Shown here: positions 12,376-36,730 of the stretch, piece by piece
Layout: each line of letters starts with the position of its first letter
Position numbering within the stretch: position 1 is the stretch's first letter
NCBI GenBank assembly: GCA_964016885.1
Contig: OZ024743.1
Coordinates: 161,572,001 to 161,636,000, forward strand
Reading direction: 5' to 3'
From: Eledone cirrhosa
Lineage: Eukaryota
DNA length: 64,000 bases
The notes under the pieces: generated by a model
Databases searched by the model: none
What the model saw: only the letters and a program-made list of their open reading frames with translations
What the model was told of the DNA's origin: nothing
Program-made: the position numbers and the translations under genes

Positions 12376-12537
12376 CATGACTCAAGGAAAGCTGAAAACT
12401 TTGACAAGATGTTCACCTCTAAGGATGTCAAAATGACCCCAACAGACAGTCTAATCATCATGAATATTGATGATAGTGCATTCAGGAACTTCTCTTTTGT
12501 CAATCCCTTTTTCAGTCAAATACAATCAGACTCTTGA
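12376..12537 (+). CDS. PRKCB: Conventional protein kinase C, alternative C-terminal (V5) exon A, PKC alpha/betaII-like
   Basis: Branch point TACTAAT 12347-12353, pyrimidine tract, TACAG acceptor; phase 0; HDSRKAENFDKMFTSKDVKMTPTDSLIIMNIDDSAFRNFSFVNPFFSQIQSDS*; NFD motif, turn motif TP, hydrophobic motif FxxFSF. Symbol is the closest vertebrate counterpart; the gene is co-orthologous to PRKCA/B/G. Confidence 0.85.
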   Translation, partial: HDSRKAENFDKMFTSKDVKMTPTDSLIIMNIDDSAFRNFSFVNPFFSQIQSDS

Positions 12538-13744
12538 GCAGTAGTATGTATACTTTTGCTTTTTTTCATTTCCTTTATCTCCACAAGAATGCTGCTTGTA
12601 ACTGTGATGACCATATTTTGTAAAGACTGGTTCCACTTAAAAACCAGCCTCATCATAGATGACAACCATCTAATAATCAAGTTTGCTAGGTTTGTTTTGA
12701 ATGCTTACTAAAGTGATATCAGTTATTATACTATTCAACAGTACAGCAAATTATCAAAGCCCATTAACAGTCTCTGTTTACTATGTCATTTATTAGTTGT
12801 CTTCCATTGATATTAGCAATCTCCTCACCAACCGAGGAGAGCCTGTACAGGTCATGGACACTGACTTTCCTCCCCAGACTAAAATGTAACCTCAAAAGGC
12901 TCTTACTCTGTTCATTCTAAGAATCATATCATTTTGTTACATTCAATTATCATTCACCATTATCATTTCTTTTACTCCATTTTATTATATGATTCAATAT
13001 AATAATCAATATAATTTGTCTCTTGAATGAGATACTGAGTGCATTGTGATGGTGATGCCAATGTCAATGAGGAGGAGAAGGAGGATAGCTACCCCAAATG
13101 TCATCTCCCGATCACATTTGAGCTGTGTCCCCTACTAACATAGCCCATCAGCCTACCTAAGGTTTTATGATGGAGATGATGGTAGACTCCATCCCTACCA
13201 CCAGCACTGCCACCACTGCGGTCAAAGGTTGACTAACACACAGCAACAAATGGTCACAGTTTGTTAAACCCACCTCATCTCTTACAACCTGCACCTGCTA
13301 AGAGATGGCAGTCATGTTGAGAGTGAAATATGTAAATACTGTGGTAATAGTGTAAATGAAGCTGAATATATTGCAAATATATTGTAATGTTCTTAAATCA
13401 CTATAGTTAATATACTATGGTTCACTTAATATTGTTCTTCTCACAATGTAGTTTAGATGCTCTGGTTAATGCATTATGGTTAACACATTCTGTTCCACAT
13501 ATTAATCCTTGGATCAATTTTTTTTTTAGTTTAACTCTTAAGAATTGATTCCATTCATCATATATACTAAGGTGATGTTATATGATATTTTGATTTTCGT
13601 TTCCCTAATTCCCATTAACTCCCAGTGTTATAAGTAAAGGAGACAAGGGTAAGTAGGTAAAGATTATCTGTCCAAAGGCCATTAGTTCCAATTCATTGCT
13701 GATATTTCATTGTTTCTGTCAGAGCTCTTATTCTACATTACCTA

Positions 13745-16700
13745 GATCACAGGCCTCCAATACAGTTCAACCTCATACCACAGTCCTCCATTATAATTCA
13801 GCCACAGACCACAGTCCACTAATATAGTTCAGTCACAGACCACAGTCCACTAATATAGTTCAACCACAGACCACAGTCCACTAATATAGATCAGCCACAG
13901 ACCACAGTCCACTAATATAGTTCAGCCACAGACCACAGTCCACTAATATAGTTCAGCCACAGACCACAGTCCACTAATATAGTTCAGTCACAGACCACAG
14001 TCCACTAAAATAGTTCAGCCACAGACCACAGTCCACTAATATAGTTCAACCACAGACCACAGTCCACTAATATAGTTCAGCCACAGACCACAGTCCACTA
14101 ATATAGTTCGACCAAAGACCACAGTCCACTAATATAGTTCAGCCACAGACCACAGTCCACTAATATAGTTCAGCCACAGACCACAGTCCACTAATATAGT
14201 TCAGCCACAGACCACAGTCCACTAATATAGTTCAACCACAGACCACAGTCCACTAATATAGTTCAGCCACAGACCACAGTCCACTAATATAGTTCAACCA
14301 CAGACCACAGTCCACTAATATAGTTCAACCACAGACCACAGTCCACTAATATAGTTCAGCCACAGACCACAGTCCACTAATATAGTTCAGCCACAGACCA
14401 CAGTCCACTAATATAGTTCAGTCACAGACCACAGTCCACTAATATAGTTCAACCACAGACCACAGTCCACTAATATAGATCAGCCACAGACCACAGTCCA
14501 CTAATATAGTTCAGCCACAGACCACAGTCCACTAATATAGTTCAGCCACAGACCACAGTCCACTAATATAGTTCAACCACAGACCACAGTCCACTAATAT
14601 AGTTCAGCCACAGACCACAGTCCACTAATATAGTTCAACCACAGACCACAGTCCACTAATATAGTTCAACCACAGACCACAGTCCACTAATATAGTTCAG
14701 CCACAGACCACAGTCCACTAATATAGTTCAACCACAGACCACAGTCCACTAATATAGTTCAACCACAGACCACAGTCCACTAATATAGATCAGCCACAGA
14801 CCACAGTCCACTAATATAGTTCAGCCACAGACCACAGTCCACTAATATAGTTCAGCCACGGACCACAGTCCACTAATATAGTTCAGTCACAGACCACAGT
14901 CCACTAATATAGTTCAACCACAGACCACAGTCCACTAATATAGATCAGCCACAGACCACAGTCCACTAATATAGTTCAGCCACAGACCACAGTCCACTAA
15001 TATAGTTCAGCCACAGACCACAGTCCACTAATATAGTTCAGTCACAGACCACAGTCCACTAATATAGTTCAGTCACAGACCACAGTCCACTAATATAGTT
15101 CAGCCACAGACCACAGTCCACTAATATAGTTCAACCACAGACCACAGTCCACTAATATAGTTCAACCACAGACCACAGTCCACTAATATAGTTCAGCCAC
15201 AGACCACAGTCCACTAATATAGTTCAGCCACAGACCACAGCCCACTAATATAGTTCAGTCACAGACCACAGTCCACTAATATAGTTCAGCCACAGACCAC
15301 AGTCCACTAATATAGTTCAGCCACAGACCACGGTCCACTAATATAGTTCAGTCACAGACCACAGTCCACTAATATAGTTGAGCCACAGACCACAGTCCAC
15401 TAATATAGTTCAACCACAGACCACAATCCACTAATATAGTTCAACCACAGACCACAGTCCACTAATATAGTTCAGCCACAGACCACAGTCCACTAATATA
15501 GTTCAACCACAGACCACAATCCACTAATATAGTTCAACCACAGACCACAGTCCACTAATATAGTTCAACCACAGACCACAGTCCACTAATATAGTTCAGC
15601 CACAGACCACAGTCCACTAATATAGTTCAGTCACAGACCACAGTCCACTAATATAGTTCAGTCACAGACCACAGTCCACTAATATAGTTCAACCACAGAG
15701 CACAATCCACTAATATAGTTCAACCACAGACCACAGTCCACTAATATAGTTCAACCACAGACCACAGTCCACTAATATAGTTCAGCCACAGACCACAATC
15801 CACTAATATAGTTCAACCACAGACCACAGTCCACTAATATAGTTCAACCACAGACCACAGTCCACTAATATAGTTCAACCACAGACCACAGTCCACTAAT
15901 ATAGTTCAATCACAGACCACAGTCCACTAATATAGTTCAGCCACAGACCACAATCCACTAATATAGTTCAACCACAGACCACAGTCCACTAATATAGTTC
16001 AGCCACAGACCACAGTCCACTAATATAGTTCAGTCACAGACCACAGTCCACTAATATAGTTCAACCACAGAGCACAATCCACTAATATAGTTCAACCACA
16101 GACCACAGTCCACTAATATAGTTCAACCACAGACCACAGTCCACTAATATAGTTCAGCCACAGACCACAATCCACTAATATAGTTCAACCACAGACCACA
16201 GTCCACTAATATAGTTCAACCACAGACCACAGTCCACTAATATAGTTCAACCACAGACCACAATCCACTAATATAGTTCAACCACAGACCACAGTCCACT
16301 AATATAGTTCAACCACAGACCACAGTCCACTAATATAGTTCAACCTCAGACCACAGTCCACTAATATAGTTCAACCACAGACCACAATCCACTAATATAG
16401 TTCAGCCACAGACCACAGTCCACTAATATAGTTCAACCACAGACCACAATCCACTAATATAGTTCAACCACAGACCACAATCCACTAATATAGTTCAGCC
16501 ACAGACCACAGTCCACTAATATAGTTCAACCACAGACCACAATCCACTAATATAGTTCAGCCACAGACCACAGTCCACTAATATAGTTCAACCACAGACC
16601 ACAATCCACTAATATAGTTCAACCTCAGACCACAGTCCACTAATATAGTTCAACCACAGACCACAATCCACTAATATAGTTCAGTCACAGACCACAGTCC

Positions 16701-19700
16701 ACTAATATAGTTCAGCCACAGACCACAGTCCACTAATATAGTTCAACCACAGACCACAGTCCACTAATATAGTTCAACCTCAGACCACAGTCCACTAATA
16801 TAGTTCAACCACAGACCACAGTCCACTAATATAGTTCAGCCACAGACCACAATCCACTAATATAGTTCAACCACAGACCACAGTCCACTAATATAGTTCA
16901 GCCACAGACCACAGTCCACTAATATAGTTCAGCCACAGACCACAATCCACTAATATAGTTCAACCACAGACCACAGTCCACTAATATAGTTCAACCTCAG
17001 ACCACAGTCCACTAATATAGTTCAACCACAGACCACAGTCCACTAATATAGTTCAGCCACAGACCACAATCCACTAATATAGTTCAACCACAGACCACAG
17101 TCCACTAATATAGTTCAGCCACAGACCACAGTCCACTAATATAGTTCAACCACAGACCACAGTCCACTAATATAGTTCAGCCACAGACCACAGTCCACTA
17201 ATATAGTTCAACCACAGACCACAGTCCACTAATATAGTTCAGCCACAGACCACAGTCCACTAATATAGTTCAACCACAGACCACAATCCACTAATATAGT
17301 TCAACCACAGACCACAGTCCACTAATATAGTTCAGCCACAGACCACAGTCCACTAATATAGTTCAGCCACAGACCACAGTCCACTAATATAGTTCAACCT
17401 CATACCACAGTACACTAATATAGTTCAGCCACAGACCACAGTCCACTAATATAGTTCAACCACAGACCACAGTCCACTAATATAGTTCAGCCACAGACCA
17501 CAGACCACTAATATAGTTCAGCCACAGACCACAGTCCACTAATATAGTTCAACCTCATACCACAGTCCACTAATATAGTTCAGCCACAGACCACAGTCCA
17601 CTAATATAGTTCAGCCACAGACCACAGTCCACTAATATAGTTCAGCCACAGACCACAGTCCACTAATATAGTTCAGCCACAGACCACAGTCCACTAATAT
17701 AGTTCAGTCACAGAACACAGTCCACTAATATAGTTCAGCCACAGACCACAGTCCACTAATATAGTTCAGTCACAGACCACAGTCCACTAATATAGTTCAG
17801 CCACAGACCACAGTCCACTAATATAGTTCAGCCACAGACCACAGTCCACTAATATAGTTCAACCACAGACCACAGTACACTAATATAGATCAGCCACATA
17901 CCACAGTCCACTAATATAGTTCAACCACAGACCACAGTCCACTAATATAGTTCAGCCACAGACCACAGTCCACTAATATAGTTCAGCCACAGACCACAGT
18001 CCACTAATATAGTTCAGTCACAGACCACAGTCCACTAATATAGTTCAACCACAGACCACAGTCCACTAATATAGTTCAGCCACAGACGACAGTCCACTAA
18101 TATAGTTCAGTCACAGACCACAGTCCACTAATATAGTTCAGTCACAGACCACAATCCACTAATATAGTTCAACCACAGACCACAGTCCACTAATATAGTT
18201 CAGCCACAGACCACAGTCCACTAATATAGTTCAGCCACAGACCACAGTTCCCTAATATAGTTCAGTCACAGACCACAGTCCACTAATATAGTTCAACCAC
18301 AGACCACAGTCCACTAATATAGTTCAGCCACAGACCACAGTCCCCTAATATAGTTCAGCCACAGACCACAGTCCACTAATATAGTTCAGTCACAGACCAC
18401 AGTCCACTAATATAGTTCAACCACAGACCACAGTCCACTAATATAGTTGAGCCACAGACCACAGTCCACTAATATAGTTGAGCCACAGACCACAGTCCAC
18501 TAATATAGTTCAGTCACAGACCACAGTCCACTAATATAGTTCAGCCACATGCCACAGTCCACTAATATAGTTGAGCCACAGACCACAGTCCACTAATATA
18601 GTTCAGCCACAGACCACAGTCCACTAATATAGTTGAGCCACAGACCACAGTCCACTAATATAGTTCAGCCACAGACCACAGTCCACTAATATAGTTGAGC
18701 CACAGACCACAGTCCACTAATATAGTTCAGTCACAGACCACAGTCCACTAATATAGTTCAGCCACATACCACAGTCCACTAATATAGTTGAGCCACAGAC
18801 CACAGTTCACTAATATAGTTCAGCCACAGACCACAGTCCACTAATATAGTTCAACCACAGACCACAGTCCACTAATATAGTTCAACCACAGACCACAGTC
18901 CACTAATATAGTTCAACCACAGACCACAGTCCACTAATATAGTTCAGCCACAGACCACAGTCCACTAATATAGTTCAGTCACAGACCACAGTCCACTAAT
19001 ATAGTTCAGCCACAGACCACAGTCCACTAATATAGTTCAGCCACAGACCACAGTCCACTAATATAGTTCAACCACAGACCACAGTCCACTAATATAGTTG
19101 AGCCACAGACCACAGTCCACTAATATAGTTCAGCCACAGACCACAGTCCACTAATATAGTTCAACCACAGACCACAGTCCACTAATATAGTTCAACCACA
19201 GACCACAGTCCACTAATATAGTTCAGCCACAGACCACAGTCCACTAATATAGTTCAGCCACAGACCACAGTCCACTAATATAGTTCAGTCACAGACCACA
19301 GTCCACTAATATAGTTCAGTCACAGACCACAATCCACTAATATAGTTCAACCACAGACCACAGTCCACTAATATAGTTCAGCCACAGACCACAGTTCACT
19401 AATATAGTTCAGCCACAGACCACAGTCCACTATTATAGTTAAACCACAGACCACAGTCCACTAATATAGTTCAACCACAGACCACAGTCCACTAATATAG
19501 TTCAGCCACAGACCACAGTCCACTAATATAGTTGAGCCACAGACCACAGTCCACTAATATAGTTCAGTCACAGACCACAGTCCACTAATATAGTTCAGCC
19601 ACAGACCACTAATATAGTTCAACCACAGACCACAGTCCACTAATATAGTTCAGTCACAGACCACAGTCCACTAATATAGTTCAGCCACAGACCACAGTCC

Positions 19701-20098
19701 ACTAATATAGTTCAGCCACAGACCACAGTCCACTAATATAGTTCAGCCACAGACCACAGTTCACTAATATAGTTCAACCACAGACCACAGTCCACTAATA
19801 TAGTTCAGTCACAGACCACAGTCCACTAATATAGTTCAGCCACAGACCACAGTCCACTAATATAGTTCAGCCACAGACCACAGTCAACTAATATAGTTCA
19901 ACCACAGACCACAGTCCACTAATATAGTTCAGCCACATACCACAGTCCACTAATATAGTTCAGCCACAGACCTCTAATATAGTTCAACCTCAGACCACAG
20001 TGCCTCAATATAGTTTAAGCTCAGACCACAGTCCTCTAATATCGTTCAACCTCAGACGACAGTCCATTAATATAATTCAACCACAGACCACAGTCTCC
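13745..20098 (+). repeat. 31-bp tandem satellite, about 200 copies (CCACAGACCACAGTCCACTAATATAGTTCAG)
   Basis: Highly homogeneous head-to-tail units with degenerate edges; stops in all frames; no spacers. Confidence 0.98.
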
Positions 20099-20989
20099 AA
20101 ATCAATTCATTTATCTGTTGGGAATAGATAACTACCAGGTCAATTTGATTCACTCTCTTTGATCCATAAACTGGTTTTGTCTATGCATCTGATGTCTCAT
20201 ATGGTCGACAGTCTGTTCCAAATTAAACTTATCACACAGAGACATCCATCATCACCACATATGTGTCTTCCTCAGCTATCGGTGATTCTCAACTTTAGTC
20301 TCTGTCATAAATTATGTCTTCAAATAAAGCATTTCACTCTGATTTTCTACAATCTGTTTCTTCTATCAATCCTCTTCAAACAGTTGAATGGTTATCATTC
20401 AGTTAAATATTTATCTATAATCAATCACTTGAATCCAACTTTTTCATGGAAATATAAATATCTCTATTATATTGGCTGGATCTTGTCCAAGCTTGTGGGT
20501 AGCTGCTAAGTGCTGAACCAATTGGCTCGATGCATCTGCTTGAATAGTGCTGATCAGAGGTACTGAGCAACAATACTAACAAGAGCATCCAATGTCAACA
20601 TGAGGAGCTACCATGACATTAAACCATCATAGTGGTAAATGTAGTTCAATGAAAAACAAAAGTATTTGAAAGAACCTGAACTGTTCTTATTCTTGATTGA
20701 GTATTTGTGAACTGTGATCTGTAACCCTTATTATCAATCAAATACAATATTATGGAAGCACATAATAACTAGTTTCCAGGAACTAGTTAAATCTTAAGTA
20801 GATTCCTATAGAAACACTCTTACATTGAAACACATATCATCATCATTCTTTTTACATTTGCTTTTCCATGCGTGCATGGGTTGAATGAAACTTTTTAAGG
20901 CAGTTTTTTCCTGACAACTCATACCTTATTGTAACCAAGGTATATATTACTGATATTTGGCTAAATGTTACATGACATATTTTTTAACG

Positions 20990-22330
20990 GTGACATAAAT
21001 AATATGTCCAGTCCTTGGTCTTCTTCCACTTGGAACTCCTGGCATGTCTTTATCCAACTTACTTTATCCATATGTATTACATGTGCATACTAGCACACTC
21101 CTCTTACACCAAGTTTTCCTCTCAGCTCATCTCTGTTTCATCATTTATGCACATGTCCAGTGGAGCATGTTCACTTCATTATTTTTCAGCTTCCCCCACA
21201 TCTGTATGACTGAACTACTGGTTGACTTTGCAAGTGACTAGTTTGAGCTCTATGTCACCAGATATTTTCAGCATCTCAGTGATGAGGCGCTGCTTTCCCT
21301 CCTTTCATGTCCTTAATGACTATTTCAACAATGTAGATGTCAACCTCAATAGCTGGTCCTTCTGTTTGGTCTAATTGTGGCAGTTCCTCTTCCTTCCATG
21401 AATTCTCAACATTCAGCAACTTTTCATAATAATTTTTCCAAGCCTCTTTCTTCTATTCATCTGTAATTCTGAACTCACTCTTCATTTTCTCTGATACACT
21501 GCTTTGTAATCTGGAAAGCCTTGTTTCTATCATTCTCCCAATACATAATATTGACAAATGTTCTGCTTTCAGCTTCTTCCCAAGCTGTGTAAACATGGCA
21601 TCTAGCTTCTTTTCTAGCTAGTTATTATTCATTCTGCCCCCATTCTTCCACTTTTTCTAAGTTTGCCATTTTGCTTTAATGGCTCTATCTACAGTTTTAT
21701 TCCACAAAAGTGTTACCTTCTATCCACCTAAAATCACATTTGTGGCCTATAGCAGATTGTCCCATAGAAACTTCCAGTTACCTCTATATTATAAGTCTAT
21801 TTCTCTTCCTCTTTTTCATCTTATGTTTCACATATAACTACCTTGTGCATATTTTTAGCTGAGGGTTCTTTCACTTTCCACACTTTTCTTCTCCAGGCTG
21901 TTATATTTCTGTGTCAATGTAGCTCTTACTCCAAACTCACAAATCATTTGTCCATATTGAGTGGTACAGTTTTCTCAAGGAAACTATATATCTATCCTAT
22001 TTCCTAGTGAATATAAAGTTAATCTGACCTGCATGTTTGCCTGGTTGGTAGGTGATGAAATGGCTGGTTGGTTTCTTGAAATTAATATTGCAGATATTTG
22101 TTAGATCAATTGTATTGTAGAACTCCAGGAACCTTCATCCTTCTTCATTTTTTGTACCATATCGATAACCATCATATACTCCAGAGTAGCCATCATTGTG
22201 TTACCCAGCATGTCCATTAAATTCATCTGCCAAGATAATGTAGTTGCTGTCATTTGTTATTGATATGGTCTGCAAGAAGACCACATAGAAACAGTCTTCT
22301 TGCTCATCAGACAGTTTCAATTGTGGTTCA
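20990..22330 (-). mobile_element. Decayed RTE-type LINE (APE endonuclease and linker)
   Basis: Minus strand DEFNGHAG (GDFNGHVG-like), FKKPTSHFITY, GKAA..ITEMLK; many stops. Confidence 0.65.
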
Positions 22331-22628
22331 ACAGCAGATTGGTTTGAGCAAAAGCAATCTCCTCCATATGTAACAGAGCTGCACTGCAGCTTGGAGTGCT
22401 AAGTAAAATTACAGGCAAGTTGGACAAGGAAGAAAGAGCCACTATTTACAAAGCACAAATCTGAAGCAAATACATTATCAACAATTCTGGCAATCCACCA
22501 CTTTCAATTGCTACTTTATTTTATCTACTCCAGGAGAGTGAAAAATAAAGTTGATCTCAGAGTACAAGGAATTTTGTCTTACACTTTATCACTATATTAA
22601 TTCTACCAATTCACCACCTATACACACC

Positions 22629-22662
<34 letters not shown>

Positions 22663-23185
22663 GTACACCATTTCCGAGAACAATTTGTTTCACCCCAAAC
22701 GGATCATCAGCTCGGCTTCAATGGGATAACATGGAAAAGACAGACAAAGGCACAAATAAACATGTGCAGAAGATATTCTCAAAGGCTAGTCAACTCACTT
22801 AGATCAATACCATAGAGGCGACTGCAAAAGATCAGAATACAATAGATTATTCAGGATACCAAGTCTAGGGGTGTCATCTCCGACAACTAGTCAGGGTGTC
22901 TAAAAGTTAACAGATGATTTAGGAAGCATTCTTTAAACCGGCCCTCTGCCATACTTACATAGGATTTGACCTCTTGTTGTTGATTTGGTCAGTTGAAAGT
23001 GACTACAGGTTCATAAATTACAGCTGGTGTGTTGCACTGTTGCTGAAGGAGGCAAACTTCTGGCCTTCAGCAAGAGCATCCAGGTGGGGTTGCACTCTTA
23101 GAGTTGTTGGTGATGTGGGCCAAACTCATCCCATGGACTGGCAGTTTTACTACTGTGGATATAACCCACCAGTGTTCTGCCACCA
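22663..23185 (-). mobile_element. 3' end of a Naiad-like Penelope element between (TA)n tracts
   Basis: Minus strand CSC*RPEVCLLQQQC..VIY..KSYVSMAEGRFK (CxCx5C linker + GIY-YIG), followed by a 3' hammerhead and (TA)n. Confidence 0.7.
22674..22715 (-). ncRNA. Minimal type I hammerhead ribozyme motif, canonical core
   Basis: CCGAG CTGATGA TCCGTTTGGGGT GAAAC AAATT GTT CTCGG; stem I CCGAG/CTCGG; near-palindromic stem III; GUU triplet; weak stem II. Confidence 0.75.
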
Positions 23186-23779
23186 TATATATATATATAT
23201 ATATGAAGTTTCATAAAATTGTAGTATTCTCAGTGTGAAGAGTAGCCATAACAGCTGGATACTATATGTATAGCAAAAAGTCAGGTTAAGATTTAACCTC
23301 ATACCGAACGGAGAGCGGTGGAGAAAGAAAGAAAGAAAGAGAGTCTAAGGCATGAGATGAGAAATGAGAGGGATATATATAGAGAGAGAGAGAAGAGGAA
23401 AGGAGAAATGCGGGAATGAGATCGATGGAACAGGACTTATGGAAAATGACAAAAAATGATAAAAAGATAGAGAAAGGATGGAAAAACTAAACAAACAAGA
23501 AATAGAAGTTCAGTGTCATACGAATCATCAGCTTCCATCAAGACTAACATGGTTTCTCATGGGAGAGGAGGGACTATGTATATAAGTCTTGTCCGTGCAA
23601 CAGAACTTCAATTTCTGTTGTTCTGACGCTGGAATAGGGGAACAAGAGAGCAATAGGGCACCTCCATGCCAAGACGTAGTTGGTAAAAAAAGAGGCTGTT
23701 TGGTATTCTGAAGGGAACAGCAGCAGCAGTAGGCAACAAGAGAACAAAAGTATCAGTAGCAGCAGTGGCAACAACCGGA

Positions 23780-24700
23780 ACCAAAACCATGGTTCCACTG
23801 GGAGAATGGGTTTGGCGCGGCCAAATGGCCTGTGCTACCTCATAGTAAAGCCATGCAGTGTCTGACACCTGAACTGAGGGTCCGCTGTATGAAAGGTTTG
23901 GTGCAGCCAACTGGCTTCTCGCTCCTCATAGCAGTGCCATTCACCTCCAGGCTCCCAAACTCTGGCTCTGCAGTGAGAAGGGTTCATTGTGGCCAAATGT
24001 CCTGTCCCACCTCATGGCAGTATCATCCAGTACTGGGTTCCCCAACCATGGTTCCGCTGTGAAAATGGGTTTGAGGCAGCCAACTGGCCAGTCCCTCCAC
24101 ATAGCGGTGCCATGTGGCATCCAACATCTGAACTGATGATCTGTTGTGTGAAGGGTTTGGCGCAGCCCGCTGGCCTGTTACTCCTCATAACAGTGCCATC
24201 CAGTTCCCTTTCTGAGCTATGGGTCCGCTGTATGAAAGGTTCGGCACAGTCAACATGCTTGTCCCTTCGCATAGCGCAGTTCCGGGCTCCCAATTCCAGA
24301 ATGTAGCATGACCAACTGGCCTTTCCTTTCTCATAGTGGTGCCATGCATCACCTGAACTGAGGGTCTGCTGTGTAAAGCATTCAGCACGACTAACTGGCT
24401 TGTCCCTCCTCATAGTGATACCATTCAGTTCCGGTCTTCCAAACTCAGCTGGCCTATCCATCTGCATTGTGATTGCCATCCAGTGCCAGGCTCTCACTGT
24501 GGTTCCGCTCCTGCCCCTCCTCATATTAGTGTCATCCAGTATGGGGCCTCAAATCTATGGCTACGCTGTGAGATGGGTTAGGCTCCTTGTATCAGTGCCA
24601 TCCAGTACTGGGCTCCAAAACTATGGTTCCACTGTGAGATGGGTTCGGCATGGCCAACTGGCCTGTCCCTCCTCATAACGGTGCCATCCAGTTCCACACT
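23780..24700 (+). repeat. Degenerate GC-rich tandem repeat, unit about 86 bp
   Basis: CCAACTGGCCTGTCCCTCCTCATAGCAGTGCCATCCAGT-like units near 23821, 23907, 23993, 24080, 24167 and onward. Confidence 0.75.
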
Positions 24701-24704
24701 GTAA

Positions 24705-24885
24705 ATGTGTTGGTGCTAGGAAGGGCATCCAGCTGTAAAATTCCTGGCCAAATTTAGTCCTCATCGGAGCAAAGTACAGCGTGGCCAACTCTAGCCAGAC
24801 TTGTCTCCCAATGTGGACAACCCAACTAACTCATGCAAGCATGGAAAAATGGACGCTGAACAATGATAATGATGAGGATGATGAT
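24705..24885 (+). mobile_element. SINE/LINE 3' tail ending in (GAT)n
   Basis: GGAAGGGCATCCAGCTGTAAAA ... CATGCAAGCATGGAAAAATGGACG ... GATGAT; related tails in reverse near 2815, 20840, 39880, 46000 and 62745. Confidence 0.6.
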
Positions 24886-25988
24886 ATATATAAATATGTT
24901 GGTGATATATATTTGGATGGGGTAAAGTATAAACCTCACAACTTCTCACAATAGACTTGGAATAGAATATAGTGTCAAGTTAACATGCCATTGTCACAAT
25001 ACAAGAAAAGCTTACAATGCAATTAGTTATTGGACTGTACTAAAAAGTATTACAGCCAAATAACTTGCTTTGCTAGTCAATGTATTGGCCTATGACAGAT
25101 ATTTATTATCTTCTTCAATAATATAGAGTTTGGTAGCAACAAGTTAATGTTCATGTGTGTATATTTTTTTTTCACTCATCTGACAGATATTGAAGAATTA
25201 AACCAAAGATGTTCTGCTTGATACAGAAGTGGATTGGTGGCAATAGTGTATATACTCAGTTTACTTTTAGCTGACTCAAGAGTTTATCTTCACAATGTTT
25301 ACAAGCTTCACCACACATAGTTATTTTTGTGACAATGGTTTAGCAGGTTACATTATGTTTAGAGGCTTTCTTTACAATTTATGGGTATATCACAGTCATG
25401 GCAGCTTCTAATTCATTCTCTCCTCCAATTTTTGTTTGTTAAACCTTTTTATTTTTGCATGTTCCTACTTTTATTTTGTTTATTTTTGTTTAAACCATGT
25501 ATTTTTATTTATTTATTATTTTACACTTTATTTGCATTTCTTTCTGAAAGTCCAATTGTTGCTTTTTTTTTCCCGATCCCCTTATTTATTTTTTCTCCTT
25601 TGTTTCACCAATTCTTATACTTCCCATTCCACCCACCTCATTTCCAGATTTCTTTCAGTTTTTTCCCTTGCAAAATTATTTACACTTGCCCACATTTAAT
25701 TTTCTCAACCTTAACGCATTACACCAAATATGAATGCCTTCACCAAGTTCAACCACTTAATTTTTCCTCATCTTACAACTCTTAAATTCTTAATCACTCT
25801 CCATGAATGATGTAGTACCAAAATTAATCAAATTATTTGCAATGAGATTTTCTAAGACAGAAACCATGTGTAAGATTGTGTATGATGTAACTCAAGACAT
25901 TGTTGTATGAACATGATGGGATTTCCAAATTGTGTGGAGTTCATGTGTAATGACTATGATAGAATTACCATATAATGTGGTGACCAAG

Positions 25989-26066
25989 ATAAAACTATCA
26001 TATAGAAATGGTATATAAAACTATCATATAGAAATGGTATATAAAACTATCATATAGAAATGGCTA
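25989..26066 (+). repeat. 26-bp tandem triplication
   Basis: ATAAAACTATCATATAGAAATGGTAT x3. Confidence 0.85.
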
Positions 26067-26084
26067 TGTTCGGGCTACCACAGT

Positions 26085-26700
26085 GTATGATTAAACTACT
26101 ATAATGTGGTGACTATAAGACTACCATAGTGTTGTGACTATGGTAGGATTACCATAGTGTGGTGAGTGTGGTAGAACTACCATAGTGTAGTGACTATGGT
26201 AGGATTACCATAGTGTGGTAGAACTACCATAGTGTGGTGACTATGGTAGGATTACCATAGTGTGGTGACTGTGGTAGAACTACCATAGTGTGGTGACTAT
26301 AATAGAATTACCATACTGTGGTGACTATGGTAGGATTACTATAGTGTGGTGACTGTGGTAGAACTACCATAGTGTGGTGACTATAATAGAATTACCATAG
26401 TGTGGTGACTATGGTAGGATTACCATTGTGTGGTGACTGTGGTAGAACTACCATAGTGTGGTGACTATAATAGAATTACCATAGTGTGGTGACTATGGTA
26501 GGATTACCATAGTGTGGTGACTGTGGTAGAACTACCATAGTGTGGTGACTATGGGAGGATTGCCATAGTGTGGTGACAATGATAGGACTACCATAGTGTG
26601 GTGACTATGAAAGGACTACCATAGTGTGGTGACTATGGTAGGATTACCATAGTGTGGTGACTATGGTAAGACTACCATAGTGTGGTGACTATGTACAATG
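26085..26700 (+). repeat. 28-bp hairpin-unit minisatellite with an 84-bp higher-order repeat
   Basis: ACTATGGTA-GGAT-TACCATAGT-GTGGTG units; A-B-C variant triplet repeated three times at ~26240-26490. Confidence 0.92.
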
Positions 26701-27363
26701 ACCAAAAGTATGGTCGATAGCTATGATAGTATGGTTGGTAGCTATGATAGAAATACCATAGTATCTTTGGTAACCGTGATAGAACTAAGTAGAGTTTTTG
26801 AGGCTATTGTAAATGCAATAATGCCAATCAGTTTGATTACTTTAGAATGTCAACCAGTTTAGAGATAATTCAAAAGATCAAAGACATATTTATGAGAATA
26901 AGTATGAGGTTGTGAACTTTTGTTCCAGAGAAGCTTCTCATAAAATTTTGAATCTTATTACTATTTGCTCTCTTTAGCTTGATTGTGACTACCATTTTTA
27001 TTTTTACACTTCTCACCTCTCACTAATGTATGTCTGATTAATCTGAAAGTTAATTCTATATTTTATAGCCAGCATGTTTCTCTTTAATGTACTTTAAATT
27101 AAGTATTTCAATTAGTTTACATATGACATTAATGTAAAGATAATTACTAATTTCATATAACAGTTATCTCCCTAAAAAATTACCTCAGTGAAACATTTTA
27201 ATTAACTTTTCTATTATTAAGATATGACATACAATCTGTCATAGTGTTATCCTTAGGTATAATATGTATTATAACTGTGTGTAGTGTATCTTATAGTTAT
27301 ATGCAGTATATTTTATAATCATGTGTAGTGTATATTATACTTATGTGTACTGTTTGTTAAATG

Positions 27364-27565
27364 AACACCCATGTAATGTATGTCCAGTTGCTAACACCCA
27401 TGTAATGTATGTCCTGTTGTTAACACCCATTTAAAGTATGTCCAGTTGCTAACACCCATGTAATGTATGTCCAATTGCTAACACCCATGTAATGTATGTC
27501 CTGTTGTTAACACCCATTTAATGTATGTCCAGTTGTTAACACCCATGTAATGTATGTCCAGTTAT
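27364..27565 (+). repeat. 29-bp minisatellite, about 7 copies
   Basis: AACACCCATGTAATGTATGTCCAGTTGCT units. Confidence 0.9.
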
Positions 27566-28460
27566 AAATAATACACATGTAATATGTCTGCAATTGTTAA
27601 TACACATATACAGAATATTAAATTGTTACCAAGCGTGTAAGTTTAATTATCAACACCCATGGCTGCATCAACCTACTAACTTCAGATGCTGTTGCAATGA
27701 CTACCAAAATCAGCTGCTGTGTAAATTATACAAAAAAAAACAAAAGATAGCAACCACTGTTTTAAAGGAATTGACTTATTTAATATAATTGAAATACGTC
27801 TACTACAGTTTCTTTCACATCAGTGCCAACTAACATAATACTAATCCTTTCTCCTCTGCTGGCCATTTTCCTCCATTTTTCATGGAGGCAGTAAAATCGT
27901 CAACTATCTGAATTGTCATTCTTTGTTTTTTCCTTCCTTGACTAAATCGTGTGTACTTTCTTCATCAAATCACATTGTCTTCAGCACTCTCTCCACAATT
28001 CATAAGCTGGGAGTTTCACTAAATTCACTGAAAGGTATTTTATATGTTCTAACATTTTTGCCTTCCTCTTTGATGTCTTAATAAATTATATTTTAATGTC
28101 ATGATGACAAGTTAAACTGAAAGAGTAACCAGTCATTAATAGCATCAGTTGGTGTGTGCAGGAAAGATAACTGAGGTTGTATAGATGTTTGGATGAATAG
28201 AGGATACATTCTGGATGAAAAACCTGCAATGATACCTTGATATTTATAATATGCAGGTGAATTTATATTTATAATATGACAAGAGAGGAGGTGGTGGTCA
28301 TATTTTGAATGCTGATCCTCACATACAAGAGAAGAGAAGAGTGAAACTAGTTGTGATATGCTATAGAGCAGGCTGACTCTACTAATATCAGCATCATTGA
28401 CTTAAAAACAGCAGTGATAAAATAAACTGTAATCATTTTATGGTTCTCAGTTAAATATAA

Positions 28461-29322
28461 CTAGCTGATGTACCCAACTTTGCCCGGGTAAACAGATGAT
28501 AAGAGAAGACAGGTAAAAGAGAAAATGACTGTATTGGATGTTTGTCTGGTTACAGTATGAGGCGAGTCCGTGGTGTCTGTGTGATACAGAAAACAGTAAA
28601 ATAAAATCTTCCAGATATAACAGATTCTTCGTTGTACCGTTTGTGCATAGTATATGAACAATTCTAGGTGTTCCCACCTAGAATAGTGACCTCTAGGAGA
28701 TGGTTCATCTTCTGCCTGACTGTAAAATGTGTATCATTGCATAGACGTGGTTGTTCCACGTTTCTCAAAAGGATGATGGAAGTTCCAATCTTTTATATTA
28801 TATGAAGATATAGATATAGATAATTAATATAAAAGATGATGCTCAGCCAGTTCGTCTTCAACCATCGCAGCACGCCGTCGCTGCTTGGCTCCAGTGTTTC
28901 GTTGGCGTTGTTTTGCCAGCTCCTCTTCATTCATGGCGGCACGTCTTCGCCTCTGAAGTTCGGCGTTCCGATGGCGCTGTTTGGCCCGTTTTTCTTCATT
29001 CCTGGCTGCACGCCGTCGCCGCTGTAGTTCACTGTTTGATAAAGTTGAATTGCTTTTACTTTCTGTGGAACGCTGCACACACGCACGCACACACACACAA
29101 ACATATACGCACGTACGTACACACGTACACATGGTAATAGTTACAGTGTTCACTTTGCCTCTCTGTTTCTTACTCTCCCCTCTCACTCCCTCATTGGCAT
29201 TATGCGTATTAATTTAAGTTTGGCGTCGTTGAGGTGGGCGGAGTTGTTTGAAACCTATGAACCAATGATAATCGAGAATTATGACACACGGAATACTGAC
29301 GTTGTTGAAATTAATATATAGA
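28461..29322 (-). mobile_element. Internally deleted non-autonomous Helitron
   Basis: 5' TCTATATA at 29322; 3' hairpin TACCCGGG..GTTGGGTA then CTAG at 28464-28461; inserted between A and T; R/E-rich N-terminal coil; helicase remnants IILLRNVEQPRLCNDT and VGTP..TKNLLYLE. Confidence 0.85.
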
Positions 29323-30304
29323 TTAGGAGACTTTTTCAATCAGTAACTATCATGTTTCACATTTAAATATGTGTAGATAATAGTTTAATTTATAATTAAA
29401 CTGAACTGCAATGAAAGGGAGAAGACTACAAGCAAAGAATACAACAAATTATTTAATCAGTCAGCTTCTACTTTAATCAATTGTTGGATATAATTTTACC
29501 CAATCATTGTTAACTGGAGCTACTCAACACCAACAACAACACCAACAAATACTATTGCTATTACTAGTCCATGCACATCACCTGAAATAAGTGCTGACTA
29601 TAGTCAACTGTTACACTCTAAGACAGCCTTGCTTTCCTTCATTTTAACGACCATCAGAACCTCAGGATGGTCAACGCTGGAATGCTATTGATCACAGGTC
29701 TGGTTTATTAGGATTAACTCAATGCTGAAAAACAACAACGACAAAAAGAGAAGAGATTTGAGTATTCAGTACATTCCTCAAATAAATAAGAGTGTGGTAT
29801 ATCTAGAGCACATAGTCTTTCAACTATATACCAATATGCTGTTAGGTCTGTTCACTCAGACCTAACAGAAGGGTTCAATACTTCTATTACTACTATTGCT
29901 ATTTCCAATATTAATCATAAACATCTTACCTGATTGTCATTCTTATCTATTCTTATTCCTTGCTTCTTCTGATCTCTGTCACCTTGCAACCACCACTATT
30001 TACTTCTGTCAAAGTTTTATTAATATTTTCAGATGAAGTATCAATATTCTATTTATTTCAGACTATACCATCTACAGGCTGATCTTCTAACACTGTTATT
30101 TTCCATTATTTCTCAGATTCTCCACTAGTTGTTAATCTTGACCAACTAAAATACTAATTTTAAAACCTTTTTATTTTATCTCATGTATTATTATTATGCT
30201 TTGTGTTTTTCCCCTTCCTTCAGTTTTGTTTCCATGTCTTGCCGGGTATTTTCCCAACATCCATTAGGATTATGATTATTATTATTATTATTGTTGTTGT
30301 TGTT

Positions 30305-30493
30305 ATGTGGTGGATTGGCAGTATCGGTAGAGAGTCAGACGCCATGCTTTGCAGCAAAGAGTTACGGCCCTTTATGGTCTGAGTTCAAATCCCGCTGAGG
30401 TTTACTTTGCCTTTTATCCTTACGGGGTCGATAAAATAAAGTACCAGTAATACACTGATATAATTGCTGGCCTTGTGCCAAAAGTAGAAACAA
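30305..30493 (+). mobile_element. tRNA-derived SINE
   Basis: A and B boxes, central GCCTTTTATCCTTACGGGGTCGATAAAA, 3' GTAGAAAC then simple repeat; degenerate second copy at ~30556-30700. Confidence 0.88.
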
Positions 30494-31030
30494 TTGTTGT
30501 TGTTGTTGTTATTGTTGTTGTTGCTACTACTACTACTACTACTACTACTATTCTGAAGGGCAGTGAATTAGAAGAATGAGAGCTTTGGACAAAGCACCTT
30601 GCTGTATTTATTCGGGCTCTTTATGTTCCTAATGTAAATCCCACTGTGGTCAACTTTACCTTTCATCACTCTAGGTTTGATAAAATAAAGTACCTATCAA
30701 GTACAATTTGATTGTTCTACCTCCACTAGCCCCAATTCAGTTCTAGATATTTATGTCAAAAGCAGCAGTTTCTGGTCCACCCAGATATTATCTTATTATC
30801 TCTTTGGTGGTCTGCCTCCTTTTCTCTGGCCTTGGAAAGCTCCCTTGAATACTCAATAGACCATAGATGTATCCAGTTGGCAAATGGCATGACCAAACTA
30901 TTGAAGTCAGCTCTTCTGGATGACTTGTAAAATCATAGTACTAGCTACCAGTCCTTTTCTTACTAAATGAACCAGTGATGATCTTATTAACACTGATTCA
31001 TTTGACTCCTAATCAAATTACGTAACCTCA

Positions 31031-33515
31031 TTATTATTATCATGAATTTGATATCTCGATCATTAAAGTTATTTAACCGAAAAAACTGCCGAAATGAACA
31101 TCAAGCCACTACTTGCAGCCTCAGATATTCCGGACATATTGGAGGGTCTTTGCTATTCCCAGTGGGCATGCCTTTTGAAGTGTTCCAAAAAAGGTGACTG
31201 GAAAGCCTTGAAAACTCTTTGAGACAGTACCTAGTGCAGCTATGATGATGGAGACGGCCTTTATCTCAAGACAGTCCCAAATACTTTTTAGTTCCCACTT
31301 TAGATCCTGGTACCAGTTAATTTTCTCCCTCTCCTTTTCTTGTATTCTTAAATCAAAGGGGTAAACTACATCATTGATCAAGCAAGATCTTTTTTCCATA
31401 GCAAGAACCACCAATTCAGGCTTATTGTGTTCTAATTCTTTATCTACTTGTATCCTGAAATCCCACAACACCTTCACCTGATTGTTTTCTATCATTGAAC
31501 CTGGCTTATGCTCTTACCACTTCTCAGAATGTGATAAATTATTCTGTTTGCATAAATGCCAGTGAATCACTTTTTCTATTATATCATGCCTTCATCTTTT
31601 ATGAGTCTGGATACGATGTGAGCCACAGTTTCTTCTCTCTTGCTCCACCGATGTTACAGAGTGAGCTAGCCTTCTCCTTGTCAGTATAATGTTTCACCCA
31701 CTTCATTCGAAGGGCTTTTTCTCTACAACCAGTAGCAACCCCTCTGTAGCTTTCTTAAGGTCCCCTTTCTTTAATCAGTTCCATGTCTGCAGATCTCTGA
31801 ATTTTGTTTTTGTCAAAAAGTTGCTATGAAGAGCTTTTTCATTCAGGTTGTTTTTCCTCTTTGTCATTACTTCTTTCTTGAATATCCTCTGGTCTATTGA
31901 CTCCTCCTTCTATACAGCCTTAAACATTGACTTGTTACTCTCAGACACATATTTATGTAAACAGCTCTTCTCTATCTGAACACAGTCCTCAATATTGATA
32001 AAATCTCTCCTGTCTTCAGCACTAAGTACAGTCGACCCTCCTTATGAAACGTACTGTTGGTAGTCATTAATTTCCTTGTCTTTCTAGCCAATTTTTTTTT
32101 GCTCGTTTACATTCCATTTAAGAATTCCTGCACTGTACTTAATAATAGACACAGCTTGGAAATTTATTGCACTAATGGCATTCCTACTGTTCAGATAGGA
32201 TTTTAGTACTCTTTTTACTCTCCTTATGTATTCAAATCTTATCATCTTCATTTTATTGTCCTTGATGGTATCTGCCTCCAAAACACAGAAATACATATCT
32301 CCTTCTTTGGCATCAATGTCCTTTATCACCTCACCCATTGGTATCTCGATTCCTTTACTTCTCTTCAATTTGCTCCTCCTCAGCACTAGGACTCCACATT
32401 TAGTCATATCAAATCCCATACAAATATTATTGCTGAAAATACAAACAGTGTTAACAAGTACATCTAACTCCTTCTCATTCTTCCTAGAGAGCTTTAGGTC
32501 ATCCATGAAGAAGAGATGGTTGATAGTAAGCTCTCCTCTTCCCAGTTCATATCCTGCCTTGACTATTCGCAATACGAGGGACAAGGGTACGAGGTTAAGG
32601 ACAAACAATAAAGAAGACAGACTATCTCCTTAGTAGATACTTCTCTTGATTTTCACTCCTCCCAAGGATTCTCCCTGTGATGTTAACTCTGTCTCCCAGT
32701 TCTTCATACTATTACTTAATAACAGTCTGGTGTTGTCTGCCACCTTGAAGATTTTTAGGTACTTGGTTATCCAAGAATGAGGAACCTTGTCAAATGCCTT
32801 CTTGTAATCTATCTATCCCATGGCAAAACCAGTACGCCTCCTCCTTCAGTTCCTTATTATCATCTTGTTAATAAGTAACTGGGTTTTTTTGTACCACAGA
32901 ACTTCTTTCAGCATCCTTTCTGTTCCTCTGGCAATAAGTTGTTTATGTCAAAATGGCGGTAGATTTTCTCAGACATAATGCTTGTTAGCAATTTCCACAG
33001 ACATGTGATAGTTCTATTGTTGGTAACATCAGTTCCTTTAGCTTGGTCTTTCATCATTAAAACTATGATACTTTTTGTCAACCACTGTGGTGCTTCACCC
33101 GACATCAACCAATCATTGAACATGATTGTCAGTATCGGATGGAGAGATCTTATATTCTTAGTCCTATATTCTTGCACACCATCAAGGCTTGGTGACTTTC
33201 AGTTGGTTAATTTATTGGCTTGGTTTTTAAAGGTTTAACCGAGATACTCAAATCAGGTTATTGGTGTGCTTGTTCATTAATTTCCTTTTTAACAGTCTGA
33301 ATCCACTCTGCCCGACTATTATGCTCAGTATCCTACTCCCAAATCACTCTCCAAAATCTGTTTGTCTGTTCAGCCTCAGGGATAGCATCATTACCTCTTT
33401 CTTTCCTTTTTAGTTGTTCAAATAACATTTTTTGGTTGTTGTTGAACATGTGGTTTTGTCTATACTGGTTAACTCTGCTCTCATATCTTTTGATTTTGCA
33501 CTTTTGGCTATGACA
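31031..33515 (-). mobile_element. 5'-truncated R4/Dong-like non-LTR retrotransposon (RT + RLE), decayed
   Basis: RTITCL..WKLLT, LPEEQKGC, GDSLS, HLFFMDDLKL; RLE region LWDF..HNKPELVV..CLIND..PFD..EK..YQDL..IIIAALGTV; 3' end at (TAA)n. Confidence 0.85.
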
Positions 33516-33596
33516 TGTTAATTTAGTTCCAACATTTAGCCCTTTTCCCTTTATTATTATCATTGTTGTTGTTAATATTATCATCATTATTATTAG

Positions 33597-34510
33597 GGTG
33601 GTGGATTGGCATTATTGGTTGGGTGTCAGACAACATGCTTTGTGGTATATAGTTATGGCCCTTTATGCTCTGCGTTCAAATCCCGCCAAGGTTAGCTTTG
33701 TCTTTCATCCTTACGGGGTCGATAAAATAAAGTACCAGTCATGCACTGAGGTTGATTTAATCAACTTTCCCCTCCTACCGAAAATTGCTGGCCTTGTGCC
33801 TATATAAGAAACCATTATTATTTGGATTGGCAGTATCGGTAGAGGGTCGGACGTCATGCTTTCCAGCATAGTTACGTCCCTTTACGATCTAAGTTCAAAT
33901 CCCGCCGAGGTTAACTTTGCCTTTCATCCTTACGAGGTCGATAAAATAAAGTACCAGTAATACACTGGGTAATTGCTGGCCTTATGCCAAACGTAGAAAC
34001 AATTATTATTATTATTATTATTGTGCAGTGGATTGGCAGTATCAGTAGAGGGTTGGATGCCATGCTTTGCTGCATAGAGTTACAGCCGTTACAGTCTGAG
34101 TTCAAATACCACCAAAGGTAACTTTGCCTTTCATCCTTATGGGGTCAATAAAATAAAGTACCAGTAATGCGCTGAGGTAATTGCTAGCCTTGTGCCAAAA
34201 ATAGAAACAATTATTTTAAATATGTCACAGTATTTGTTCCAACATTCTGAGTTCAAATCCCACAAAGATCAACTTTGCCCCTCATCCTTCCGACGTCGAT
34301 AAAATAAATGTTAGTTAGGTACTCAAGGAGATTTAATTGACTTCCCCTGCCCCAAACATTGCTGGTCTTGTGTTTAAGCTAGAAATCATTATTCTTATGG
34401 GCAAATCCTTTTGGGATCCATAAAATAAAGTACTAGTCAAGGTGAGGAAGATATTGTTTGATGAGATACTTAGTAGTATCTGTTCTGATTCTTTACATAC
34501 TGAGTTCAAT
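33597..34510 (+). mobile_element. Head-to-tail cluster of 4-5 SINE copies
   Basis: Copies at ~33597-33812, 33823-34000, 34027-34210, partial 34230-34390 and 34415-34510, separated by (ATT)n. Confidence 0.88.
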
Positions 34511-34795
34511 TGTTCTTTGACCTACTTGGTTGATTGACTTAATCTGTTTCCAGCATCCAGGCCACATTTCCCCCACCCCTCCTTCATTCTTCCTCCCCAT
34601 CTATGCAATAAAAACAAAAAAGACACAGTAATATACTGGTTTGATTGGATGAACAACACAAATTCGAGGCTTTATTCCAAAGATAAAAATCCTTATTATT
34701 GCTACTATAAACTTTTACCCTTATATTATAGCGCCAACCAAAAAACATATTGTTGCTTTTATTTTCATTTCTTTTATTTCACTTTCTTTTCACAG

Positions 34796-34948
34796 AAAAG
34801 CAAAAAAGATGTCAGCAATTTCGACCGTGAATTCACCAGTGAAGCTCCAAAATTGACACCAACGGACAAACTATTCATTATGAATTTGGACCAGACTGAG
34901 TTTTCTGGATTCTCCTACATCAATCCTGAATTTGTTATCTCTGTTTGA
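34796..34948 (+). CDS. PRKCB: Conventional protein kinase C, terminal (V5) exon B, PKC betaI-like
   Basis: Long pyrimidine tract and CACAG acceptor; phase 0; [50 protein letters not shown], close to the betaI tail ([31 protein letters not shown]). Confidence 0.95.

Positions 34949-36730
<1,782 letters not shown>

What the first reader, a model, noticed from the sequence alone, without database searches (positions are those of the whole stretch)
12376..34948. Two alternative PKC C-terminal exons mirroring vertebrate betaII and betaI in sequence and order
Seen: exon A (53 aa; AENFDK..FT..TP.D..I.NID.S.F..FSFVN) and exon B (50 aa; [35 protein letters not shown]), both phase 0, 22 kb apart, both with intact turn and hydrophobic phosphorylation motifs. 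Exon A is below the ORF-track cutoff and easily missed by annotation. Established: vertebrate PRKCB makes betaII from an upstream and betaI from a downstream V5 exon; alpha carries a betaII-like tail. From memory, nematode pkc-2 also has two C-terminal exons, so novelty may be limited to this lineage. Inference: the exon pair predates the protostome-deuterostome split. Tail B ends in a PDZ-ligand-like VISV and tail A (QSDS) does not, suggesting different targeting.
Basis: partly seen in the sequence, partly recalled or inferred. Interest (0 to 1): 0.85.

Follow-up and report, generated by a model that had tools for sequence, protein, structure and literature searches.

The report
Octopus PKC betaI/betaII-type tail switch
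An octopus calcium-dependent protein kinase C gene has two interchangeable tail exons arranged and spliced like the mammalian PKC-betaII/betaI pair, likely inherited from the common ancestor of bilaterian animals; it is real, but its ancient age is already in print.

Summary
Observation confirmed. Exons A (12376-12543) and B (34796 onward) end one octopod conventional PKC gene with a single penultimate exon 27 kb upstream. Contigs from 4 of 4 runs join penultimate exon to A and A to B. So A is a stop-containing cassette exon that turns B into 3'UTR, as in mammalian betaII inclusion. The direct skip junction was not displayed; RefSeq models of three Octopus species carry it.

Both tails occur in molluscs, annelids, nemerteans, brachiopods, a nematode, ambulacrarians and vertebrates, A first wherever order was visible. 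A tails form one group (98/87). Octopus-, mollusc- and vertebrate-specific duplications are rejected (p<=0.01); separate protostome and deuterostome duplications are not (p=0.08-0.09). A is no closer overall to betaII than to betaI; the link rests on a few columns. One is the betaI F648/betaII V647 allosteric site: F in 26/27 B tails, 0/21 A tails.

The PRKCB event is already dated to Bilateria (PMC8373072), RefSeq annotates both tails, and this scan found the pair before in an arthropod. Added here: mollusc splice evidence and conservation of the F648 switch.

The parts
12336..12375 (+). 3' splice region of exon A (polypyrimidine tract and CAG); intron from the penultimate exon is 27,392 nt (penultimate exon ends at G000:C4:161556983, outside the window)
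   Evidence: junction at 12376 in contigs of 4 of 4 runs
12376..12543 (+). Exon A: 168-nt cassette exon; 53 codons of a betaII/alpha-class V5 tail, TGA at 12535-12537, then 6 nt of 3'UTR
   Evidence: identical tail in RefSeq Octopus isoforms
12544..12549 (+). 5' splice donor GTATGT of exon A, 6 nt after the stop
   Evidence: contigs leave the genome after 12543 and go on in exon B; reciprocal join
12544..34795 (+). A-B intron, 22,252 nt; no second penultimate exon; first AATAAA/ATTAAA after A lies at 20222
34756..34795 (+). 3' splice region of exon B (polypyrimidine tract and CAG)
   Evidence: junction at 34796
34796..34948 (+). Exon B coding part: 50-aa betaI-class V5 tail ending VISV; coding when A is skipped, 3'UTR when A is included
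34874..34876 (+). Codon 27 of exon B, Phe, aligned to human betaI F648; codon 27 of exon A (12454-12456) is Ile, aligned to betaII V647
34949..35110 (+). Start of the 3'UTR of the last exon, covered by contigs; its end was not determined; first AATAAA at 35838

Best explanation
This is the 3' end of one octopod conventional PKC gene in which a stop-containing cassette exon A is spliced between the penultimate exon and the last exon B, giving an A-tailed kinase with B as 3'UTR, while skipping A likely gives the B-tailed kinase, and the pair likely descends from one tandem exon duplication in the bilaterian ancestor that also gave vertebrate betaII and betaI. The stop lies only 6 nt before the last junction, so the A-included mRNA is predicted to escape nonsense-mediated decay (50-55 nt rule, established knowledge). 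The two enzymes share all regulatory and catalytic domains and both phosphorylation motifs. By analogy with human structures, the B form (Phe at the betaI F648 position) is predicted to dock its C1b domain less tightly and activate on membranes more readily, and the A form (Ile) to be more firmly autoinhibited, like betaII. The B form also ends in a fixed-length hydrophobic terminus that would bind PDZ proteins such as PICK1, which the A form lacks. Shown: exons, single gene, both junctions of A, distribution, residue pattern. Inferred: the skip junction in this species, the single origin, and the functional difference.
For: One copy of each upstream exon matched on C4; one penultimate exon in a continuous 80 kb. 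Penultimate-to-A and A-to-B joins in 4 of 4 runs; reciprocal A-to-B join in 2 of 4 runs. The skip form is supported by contig breaks at both ends of A in X1 and 2 nt before B in X1 and X14, by B-tailed RefSeq models of O. bimaculoides, O. vulgaris and O. sinensis, and by Aplysia Q16974. The vertebrate mechanism is the same: betaII exon inclusion with a stop leaves the last exon untranslated (PMC3537621 figure legend), and the betaII exon lies upstream of betaI. Both tails occur on one core in Liolophura, Owenia, Lineus, Lingula, Ptychodera and Glandiceps. All 21 A rows lie on one side of a branch at 98/87, and 19 rows at 99/99 without long rows. Glu before NFD in 22/22 A and 0/27 B; Phe at column 27 in 26/27 B and 0/21 A; 117/131 versus 2/138 among all stored distinct tails. 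F648/V647 mechanism: PMC13385876 section 10. The Aplysia classical PKC C-terminus is cited as binding PICK1 (bioRxiv 620633 passage), and its stored sequence has the B tail.
Against: No contig displayed the direct penultimate-to-B junction in the 4 runs laid on B. Separate protostome and deuterostome duplications were not rejected (p=0.09, 0.083), with only 50 columns and fast-evolving A tails (mean identity 0.50 versus 0.74 for B), so long-branch attraction could help group them. Octopus A matches betaII/alpha tails at 20-23 of 48-52 residues, betaI tails at 23-24 of 50, and its best PDB hit is betaI. Hemichordate A tails share much of the B mid-section. The human F648V mutant was intermediate or near wild type, and only F648A changed clearly; octopus A has Ile, so the predicted effect may be small. 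No non-bilaterian tail was identified.
Confidence: 0.78

Rival explanations
1. Same splicing, but independent duplications of the last exon in the protostome and deuterostome stems. The upstream copy evolved faster each time and converged on the same few residues.
For: AU test does not reject it (p=0.09 with outgroups, 0.083 without long rows). A tails are fast-evolving. Convergent tandem-exon events are common, and PMC9741552 lists PRKCB/Pkc53E/pkc-2 in its convergence section. ACOX1 is a stated case of three origins despite similar conserved residues.
Against: The best tree joins all A tails (98/87, 99/99). A tails share states absent from B and from the nPKC and PKN outgroups (Glu at column 7; no acidic or Gln residue at column 12 in 138 of 138 Glu-class tails). 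Order and splice position are the same. The Drosophila event in that paper is scored as a different region.
Confidence: 0.14
2. A recent octopus- or mollusc-specific duplication of exon B.
For: A and B share a TPTD-L-IMN stretch, and A's best PDB match is betaI.
Against: AU p=0.003 (octopus pair) and 0.005 (all mollusc tails); A-class tails occur in annelids, nemerteans, brachiopods, a nematode and ambulacrarians.
Confidence: 0.03
3. Exon A belongs to a separate paralogue, is a pseudoexon, or acts only as a decay-triggering poison exon.
For: A carries a stop upstream of a further junction.
Against: Single penultimate exon; spliced in 4 of 4 runs; stop only 6 nt from the junction; tail identical in O. 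sinensis and O. bimaculoides and 98% in Argonauta; 1 difference in 162 nt in run X1 versus 21 in 160 nt of neighbouring UTR.
Confidence: 0.05

Closest known systems
Mammalian PRKCB betaII / betaI V5 exons
   Same: Same splice position after the PPxKPK motif; upstream exon with a stop is included as a cassette and turns the last exon into 3'UTR; same order; last exon codes exactly 50 aa; tail B matches vertebrate betaI tails at 36-38 of 50 residues; Phe versus aliphatic split at the F648/V647 site.
   Different: Octopus has one conventional PKC gene found here, not alpha/beta/gamma. Tail A matches betaII/alpha at only 20-23 residues. The gap between the two exons is 22 kb versus about 5 kb in human. 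Insulin/Akt/SRp40 control (named in the search listings and reference titles; mechanism recalled) was not tested, nor was the vertebrate stop-to-donor distance.
Aplysia PKC Apl I (calcium-dependent PKC, Q16974)
   Same: Same named family; the cloned protein carries the B tail; its C-terminus is cited as binding PICK1.
   Different: The Aplysia cluster showed only the B form (2 of 2 members); two searches turned up no paper on an A-tailed mollusc isoform.
Caenorhabditis pkc-2 alternative 3' exons
   Same: A C. auriculariae gene model holds an A-class tail followed by a B-class tail; pkc-2 is listed with a tandem exon event. Two C-termini in C. elegans pkc-2 is recalled from memory, not read.
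   Different: The nematode A tail is very divergent (branch 2.44); whether it is spliced onto B was not tested.
Vertebrate PKC-alpha tail
   Same: Groups with betaII inside the A class.
   Different: Alpha is known (recalled) to carry a PICK1 ligand on its A-class tail, whereas octopus A ends QSDS and the hydrophobic terminus sits on B.

Membership tests
Conventional (calcium-dependent) PKC | C1a, C1b, C2, kinase and AGC C-terminal tail in one gene | tested here: met
   P0001 carries PF00130, PF00168, PF00069 and PF00433; its exons map in order on C4 at 67-97% identity of the matched stretches, up to exon A
Conventional PKC V5 tail | NFD, turn motif and hydrophobic motif in the last coding exon | tested here: met
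   Both exons
PRKCB betaII/betaI tandem exon pair | Two homologous tail exons in one gene after a shared penultimate exon | tested here: met
PRKCB betaII/betaI tandem exon pair | betaII-class exon upstream of the betaI-class exon | tested here: met
   window order; human coordinates; class by tree and columns
PRKCB betaII/betaI tandem exon pair | Upstream exon is a stop-containing cassette spliced onto the last exon | tested here: met
   vertebrate statement
PRKCB betaII/betaI tandem exon pair | Skipping joins the penultimate exon directly to the last exon | tested here: inconclusive
   not displayed in 4 of 4 runs; indirect support from contig break points and RefSeq/Swiss-Prot proteins of relatives
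PRKCB betaII/betaI tandem exon pair | Common descent of the duplication (each exon closer to its class across species than to its partner) | tested here: inconclusive
   favoured by the tree (98/87, 99/99); octopus, mollusc and vertebrate origins rejected; separate protostome/deuterostome origins p=0.08-0.09
PRKCB betaII/betaI tandem exon pair | Phe (betaI 648) versus small aliphatic residue (betaII 647) | tested here: met
   Phe in B, Ile in A; 26/27 versus 0/21; site described
PRKCB betaII/betaI tandem exon pair | Signal-regulated inclusion (insulin, Akt, SR proteins) and different lipid affinity | not testable with these tools
   needs tissue RNA-seq reads and biochemistry

The most novel reading that the evidence does not exclude
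The mammalian betaI/betaII switch was inherited whole from the bilaterian ancestor: exon pair, stop-cassette wiring with the stop next to the donor, and the F648/V647 allosteric residue. Mollusc neurons would then make an unstudied betaII-like form of PKC Apl I that is more tightly autoinhibited and lacks the PICK1 ligand, whereas the cloned Aplysia enzyme is the betaI-like form.
Probability: 0.5. Interest if true: 0.55.

Novelty: new member of a known kind. Interest (0 to 1): 0.36.

Why it matters
It supplies explicit protostome evidence for a date that the 2021 catalogue illustrated with a starfish, itself a deuterostome. It shows the same splice wiring in a mollusc, and it shows that the residue proposed in 2026 to explain betaI/betaII differences separates the two exon classes across phyla. 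That gives a testable prediction for the main invertebrate memory kinase (PKC Apl I and its PKM). The core claim, an ancient PKC tail switch, is not new.

Tried and rejected
Search for a second penultimate exon or other kinase exons between and around A and B: none. The C22 PKC gene, first suspected to be a second conventional PKC, has a novel-PKC-like tail and one tail match in the 40 kb examined; it served as outgroup. The run search listed no holder on record as RNA; the laid contigs join exons across 27-kb and 22-kb introns, so they are read as spliced RNA. Contigs cannot rank the isoforms, so no claim is made on which form dominates. The direct skip junction could not be displayed with the two layings available. 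Raw identity and phmmer scores do not assign A to betaII. A profile search of cluster representatives and a name look-up of 10 hits (2 with a species name, both arthropods) gave no identifiable cnidarian or sponge tail. Of 10 clusters, 5 showed both tails; the decapod, sandfly, Aplysia and Gordionus clusters showed only B, and one Alosa model switches from A to B in mid-exon. The chiton's extra 14-aa insert before A had no separate match in the octopus intron at E<=0.05. Two Abascal 2015 papers do not mention PRKCB in their main text. Earlier-finding look-ups by place and by sequence were empty. No formal dN/dS, structure prediction or complex prediction was run.
Full report
Observation. Exon A (12376-12537) reads 53 aa and exon B (34796-34948) 50 aa; both follow a polypyrimidine tract and CAG. 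Both pass Pfam Pkinase_C (38.0 and 56.8 bits, cut-off 20.9) and keep the NFD, turn and hydrophobic motifs. They are 2 of 7 PF00433 matches in the 3.0-Gb genome. The host is an octopod by protein identity: tail A is identical to RefSeq isoforms of Octopus sinensis (X1, X2) and O. bimaculoides (X1) and 98% identical to Argonauta. Tail B is 98% identical to B-tailed isoforms of O. bimaculoides, O. vulgaris and O. sinensis. Annotation therefore already holds both forms.

One gene. A search with the full O. sinensis protein placed one match per upstream segment, in order, on C4 from 161.20 to 161.56 Mb (a stricter first look was used, so weak matches may be missing). In a continuous 80 kb from the penultimate exon through the window there is one penultimate exon, then A, then B. 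The penultimate exon ends in phase 0 at a GT donor, 27,392 nt before A. The PKC gene on C22 has a novel-PKC-like tail and one tail match in 40 kb.

Splicing. Contigs of 4 of 4 runs (coded organisms F, A, D, C; four studies) join the end of the penultimate exon to 12376 and go on from exon A into the first bases of exon B. Three leave at 12543; X1 differs in the 6 post-stop bases. The donor GTATGT begins at 12544, 6 nt after the stop. Laid on B, 2 of 4 runs (X19, X6) show the end of A before 34796; in the other two (X1, X14) the contig starts 2 nt before B. Both A and the penultimate exon end in TA, and the X1 contig over A is flanked by 30 upstream and 28 exon-B bases. That pattern is what an assembly bubble between inclusion and skipping gives (inference). 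The direct skip junction was not displayed. No AATAAA/ATTAAA follows A until 20222. A is thus a stop-containing cassette, and B is the last exon, coding only when A is skipped. A figure legend of PMC3537621 describes the same for mammals: betaII exon inclusion brings a stop and leaves the last exon untranslated (passages). Human betaII lies upstream of betaI (PMC8373072 supplement rows). A stop 6 nt from the last junction should escape decay under the 50-55 nt rule (established knowledge, not tested).

Constraint. Over exon A the three heterospecific contigs differ from the window at 1 of 162, 2 of 168 and 3 of 168 bases. In X1 the UTR after B differs at 21 of 160 bases by the contig total (19 listed; Fisher p=2.7e-6). 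The 7 X1 differences in B's coding part are all silent; X6 and X14 have 3 differences, one of them S to A. No formal dN/dS was computed.

Distribution. Both tails occur as isoforms on one core in Liolophura and in 5 of the 10 clusters examined: Ptychodera, Glandiceps, Lineus, Owenia and Lingula. The decapod, sandfly, Aplysia and Gordionus clusters showed only B. Gene models that fuse both tails give A then B in Paralvinella, Dimorphilus, Nucella, Owenia, Nymphon, Caenorhabditis auriculariae, Anneissia, Acipenser, Chiloscyllium and Ophiophagus (some A parts are truncated). I saw none in the reverse order among the printed tails. No non-bilaterian tail was identified.

Descent. A tree of 50 tails over 50 columns (left out: two distant AGC tails and the 25-aa Nymphon A piece) puts all 21 A rows, including octopus A and vertebrate betaII and alpha, on one side of a branch at 98/87. 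Without outgroups and the Caenorhabditis and Dimorphilus rows (44 rows) support is 99/99, though that bootstrap had not fully settled. AU tests reject octopus A+B as sisters (p=0.003), all mollusc tails as a clade (p=0.005) and all vertebrate tails as a clade (p=0.010). They do not reject protostome tails as a clade apart from deuterostome tails (p=0.090 and 0.083). A tails evolve faster (mean identity 0.50 versus 0.74), so long-branch attraction is possible. Overall identity does not assign A: 20-23 of 48-52 residues to betaII/alpha, 23-24 of 50 to betaI, 22 of 50 to its own B; its best PDB stretch is betaI (40.2 bits versus 39.2 alpha and 34.6 betaII). B is clearly betaI-class (36-38 of 50; 68.7 bits). 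The assignment of A rests on shared columns: Glu before NFD in 22 of 22 A and 0 of 27 B, with Asn and Ser in the two outgroups; and no Asp, Glu or Gln at column 12 in 138 of 138 Glu-class tails against 131 of 131 others. Part of the A set was found with an A profile, but the A tails reached through the B search (isoform clusters and fused models) show the same Glu.

Likely working. PMC13385876 (section 10 and passages) attributes the easier membrane activation of betaI to F648, against V647 in betaII, which shifts helix alphaB and displaces C1b. F648A reduced protease sensitivity; F648V was intermediate or near wild type. That site is column 27 of the tail. It is Phe in 26 of 27 B rows and in 0 of 21 A rows that have the column (Val, Ile or Leu; Ile in octopus), and Phe in 117 of 131 versus 2 of 138 among all stored distinct tails classed by column 7 (these sets are rich in near-copies from fishes and insects). 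The words invertebrate and evolution do not occur in that paper's main text. I infer that octopus B activates more readily and A is more tightly autoinhibited; the effect may be small. All 27 B rows are 50 aa and 26 end in Val or Ile, while 15 whole A tails run 48-60 aa with varied ends. A passage of bioRxiv 620633 cites the Aplysia classical PKC C-terminus as binding PICK1, and that protein has the B tail. PDZ binding by octopus B is therefore plausible but untested; a structural role for the terminal residues is an alternative.

What is known. PMC8373072 (section 17 and supplement rows) dates the PRKCB C-terminal event to Bilateria, names the crown-of-thorns starfish as its example, and notes residues conserved in one exon but not the other. 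PMC9741552 (sections 15 and 17, supplement rows) keeps the Bilateria date, scores Drosophila Pkc53E as 'different region, convergent' and lists pkc-2. Searches turned up no paper on an A-tailed mollusc isoform (listings only, apart from the papers named); the library lacks most subscription papers, and the bioRxiv supplements were not seen.

Verdict. Real, spliced and conserved; most likely the orthologue of the betaII/betaI switch (0.78). It is a new member of a known kind. The additions are the cassette wiring shown in octopods, spiralian breadth with topology tests, and conservation of the F648/V647 site. Interest 0.36.

Noticed in passing
window:30043-30077 (+): A minor contig of run X6 (depth 4.3) joins exon B to sequence matching this spot in the A-B intron (3 mismatches in 30; 0 expected by chance). 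In the window it is followed by GC rather than GT. Possibly a rare extra UTR exon or splicing intermediate; one contig only.
   Followed up: partly
P0008, P0014 (Liolophura): Chiton isoforms carry a 14-aa cysteine-containing insert just before tail A; no separate match in the octopus intron.
   Followed up: partly
P0003 (Octopus sinensis X1), outside the window: A 3-aa insert in the kinase domain relative to X2, like a microexon or alternative splice site.
   Followed up: no
P0319, P0331, P0340, P0350, P0380, P0171: Some B-class tails (P0171 is a teleost; the others are unnamed) have Val at the F648 position, and those whose end was printed lack the terminal Val: apparent drift of a duplicate toward the betaII state.
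   Followed up: no
window:1437-2213, 6102-6860, 31121-32629: Open frames that look like broken non-LTR or Penelope-type reverse transcriptase fragments (recognised from memory of the motifs).
   Followed up: no
window:14001-20000: Strong GC and AT skew (GC skew about -0.45, AT skew about +0.3) inside the A-B intron, probably a tandem repeat array.
   Followed up: no
window:857, 30445, 33736, 33955, 44740 and others: Many copies of one short interspersed repeat on both strands, seen as a recurring translated motif.
   Followed up: no
window:12544-12570: U-rich tract right after the donor of exon A; a related unnamed contig (P0005) appears to keep the same stop-to-donor spacing, judged from its read-through translation.
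   Followed up: no
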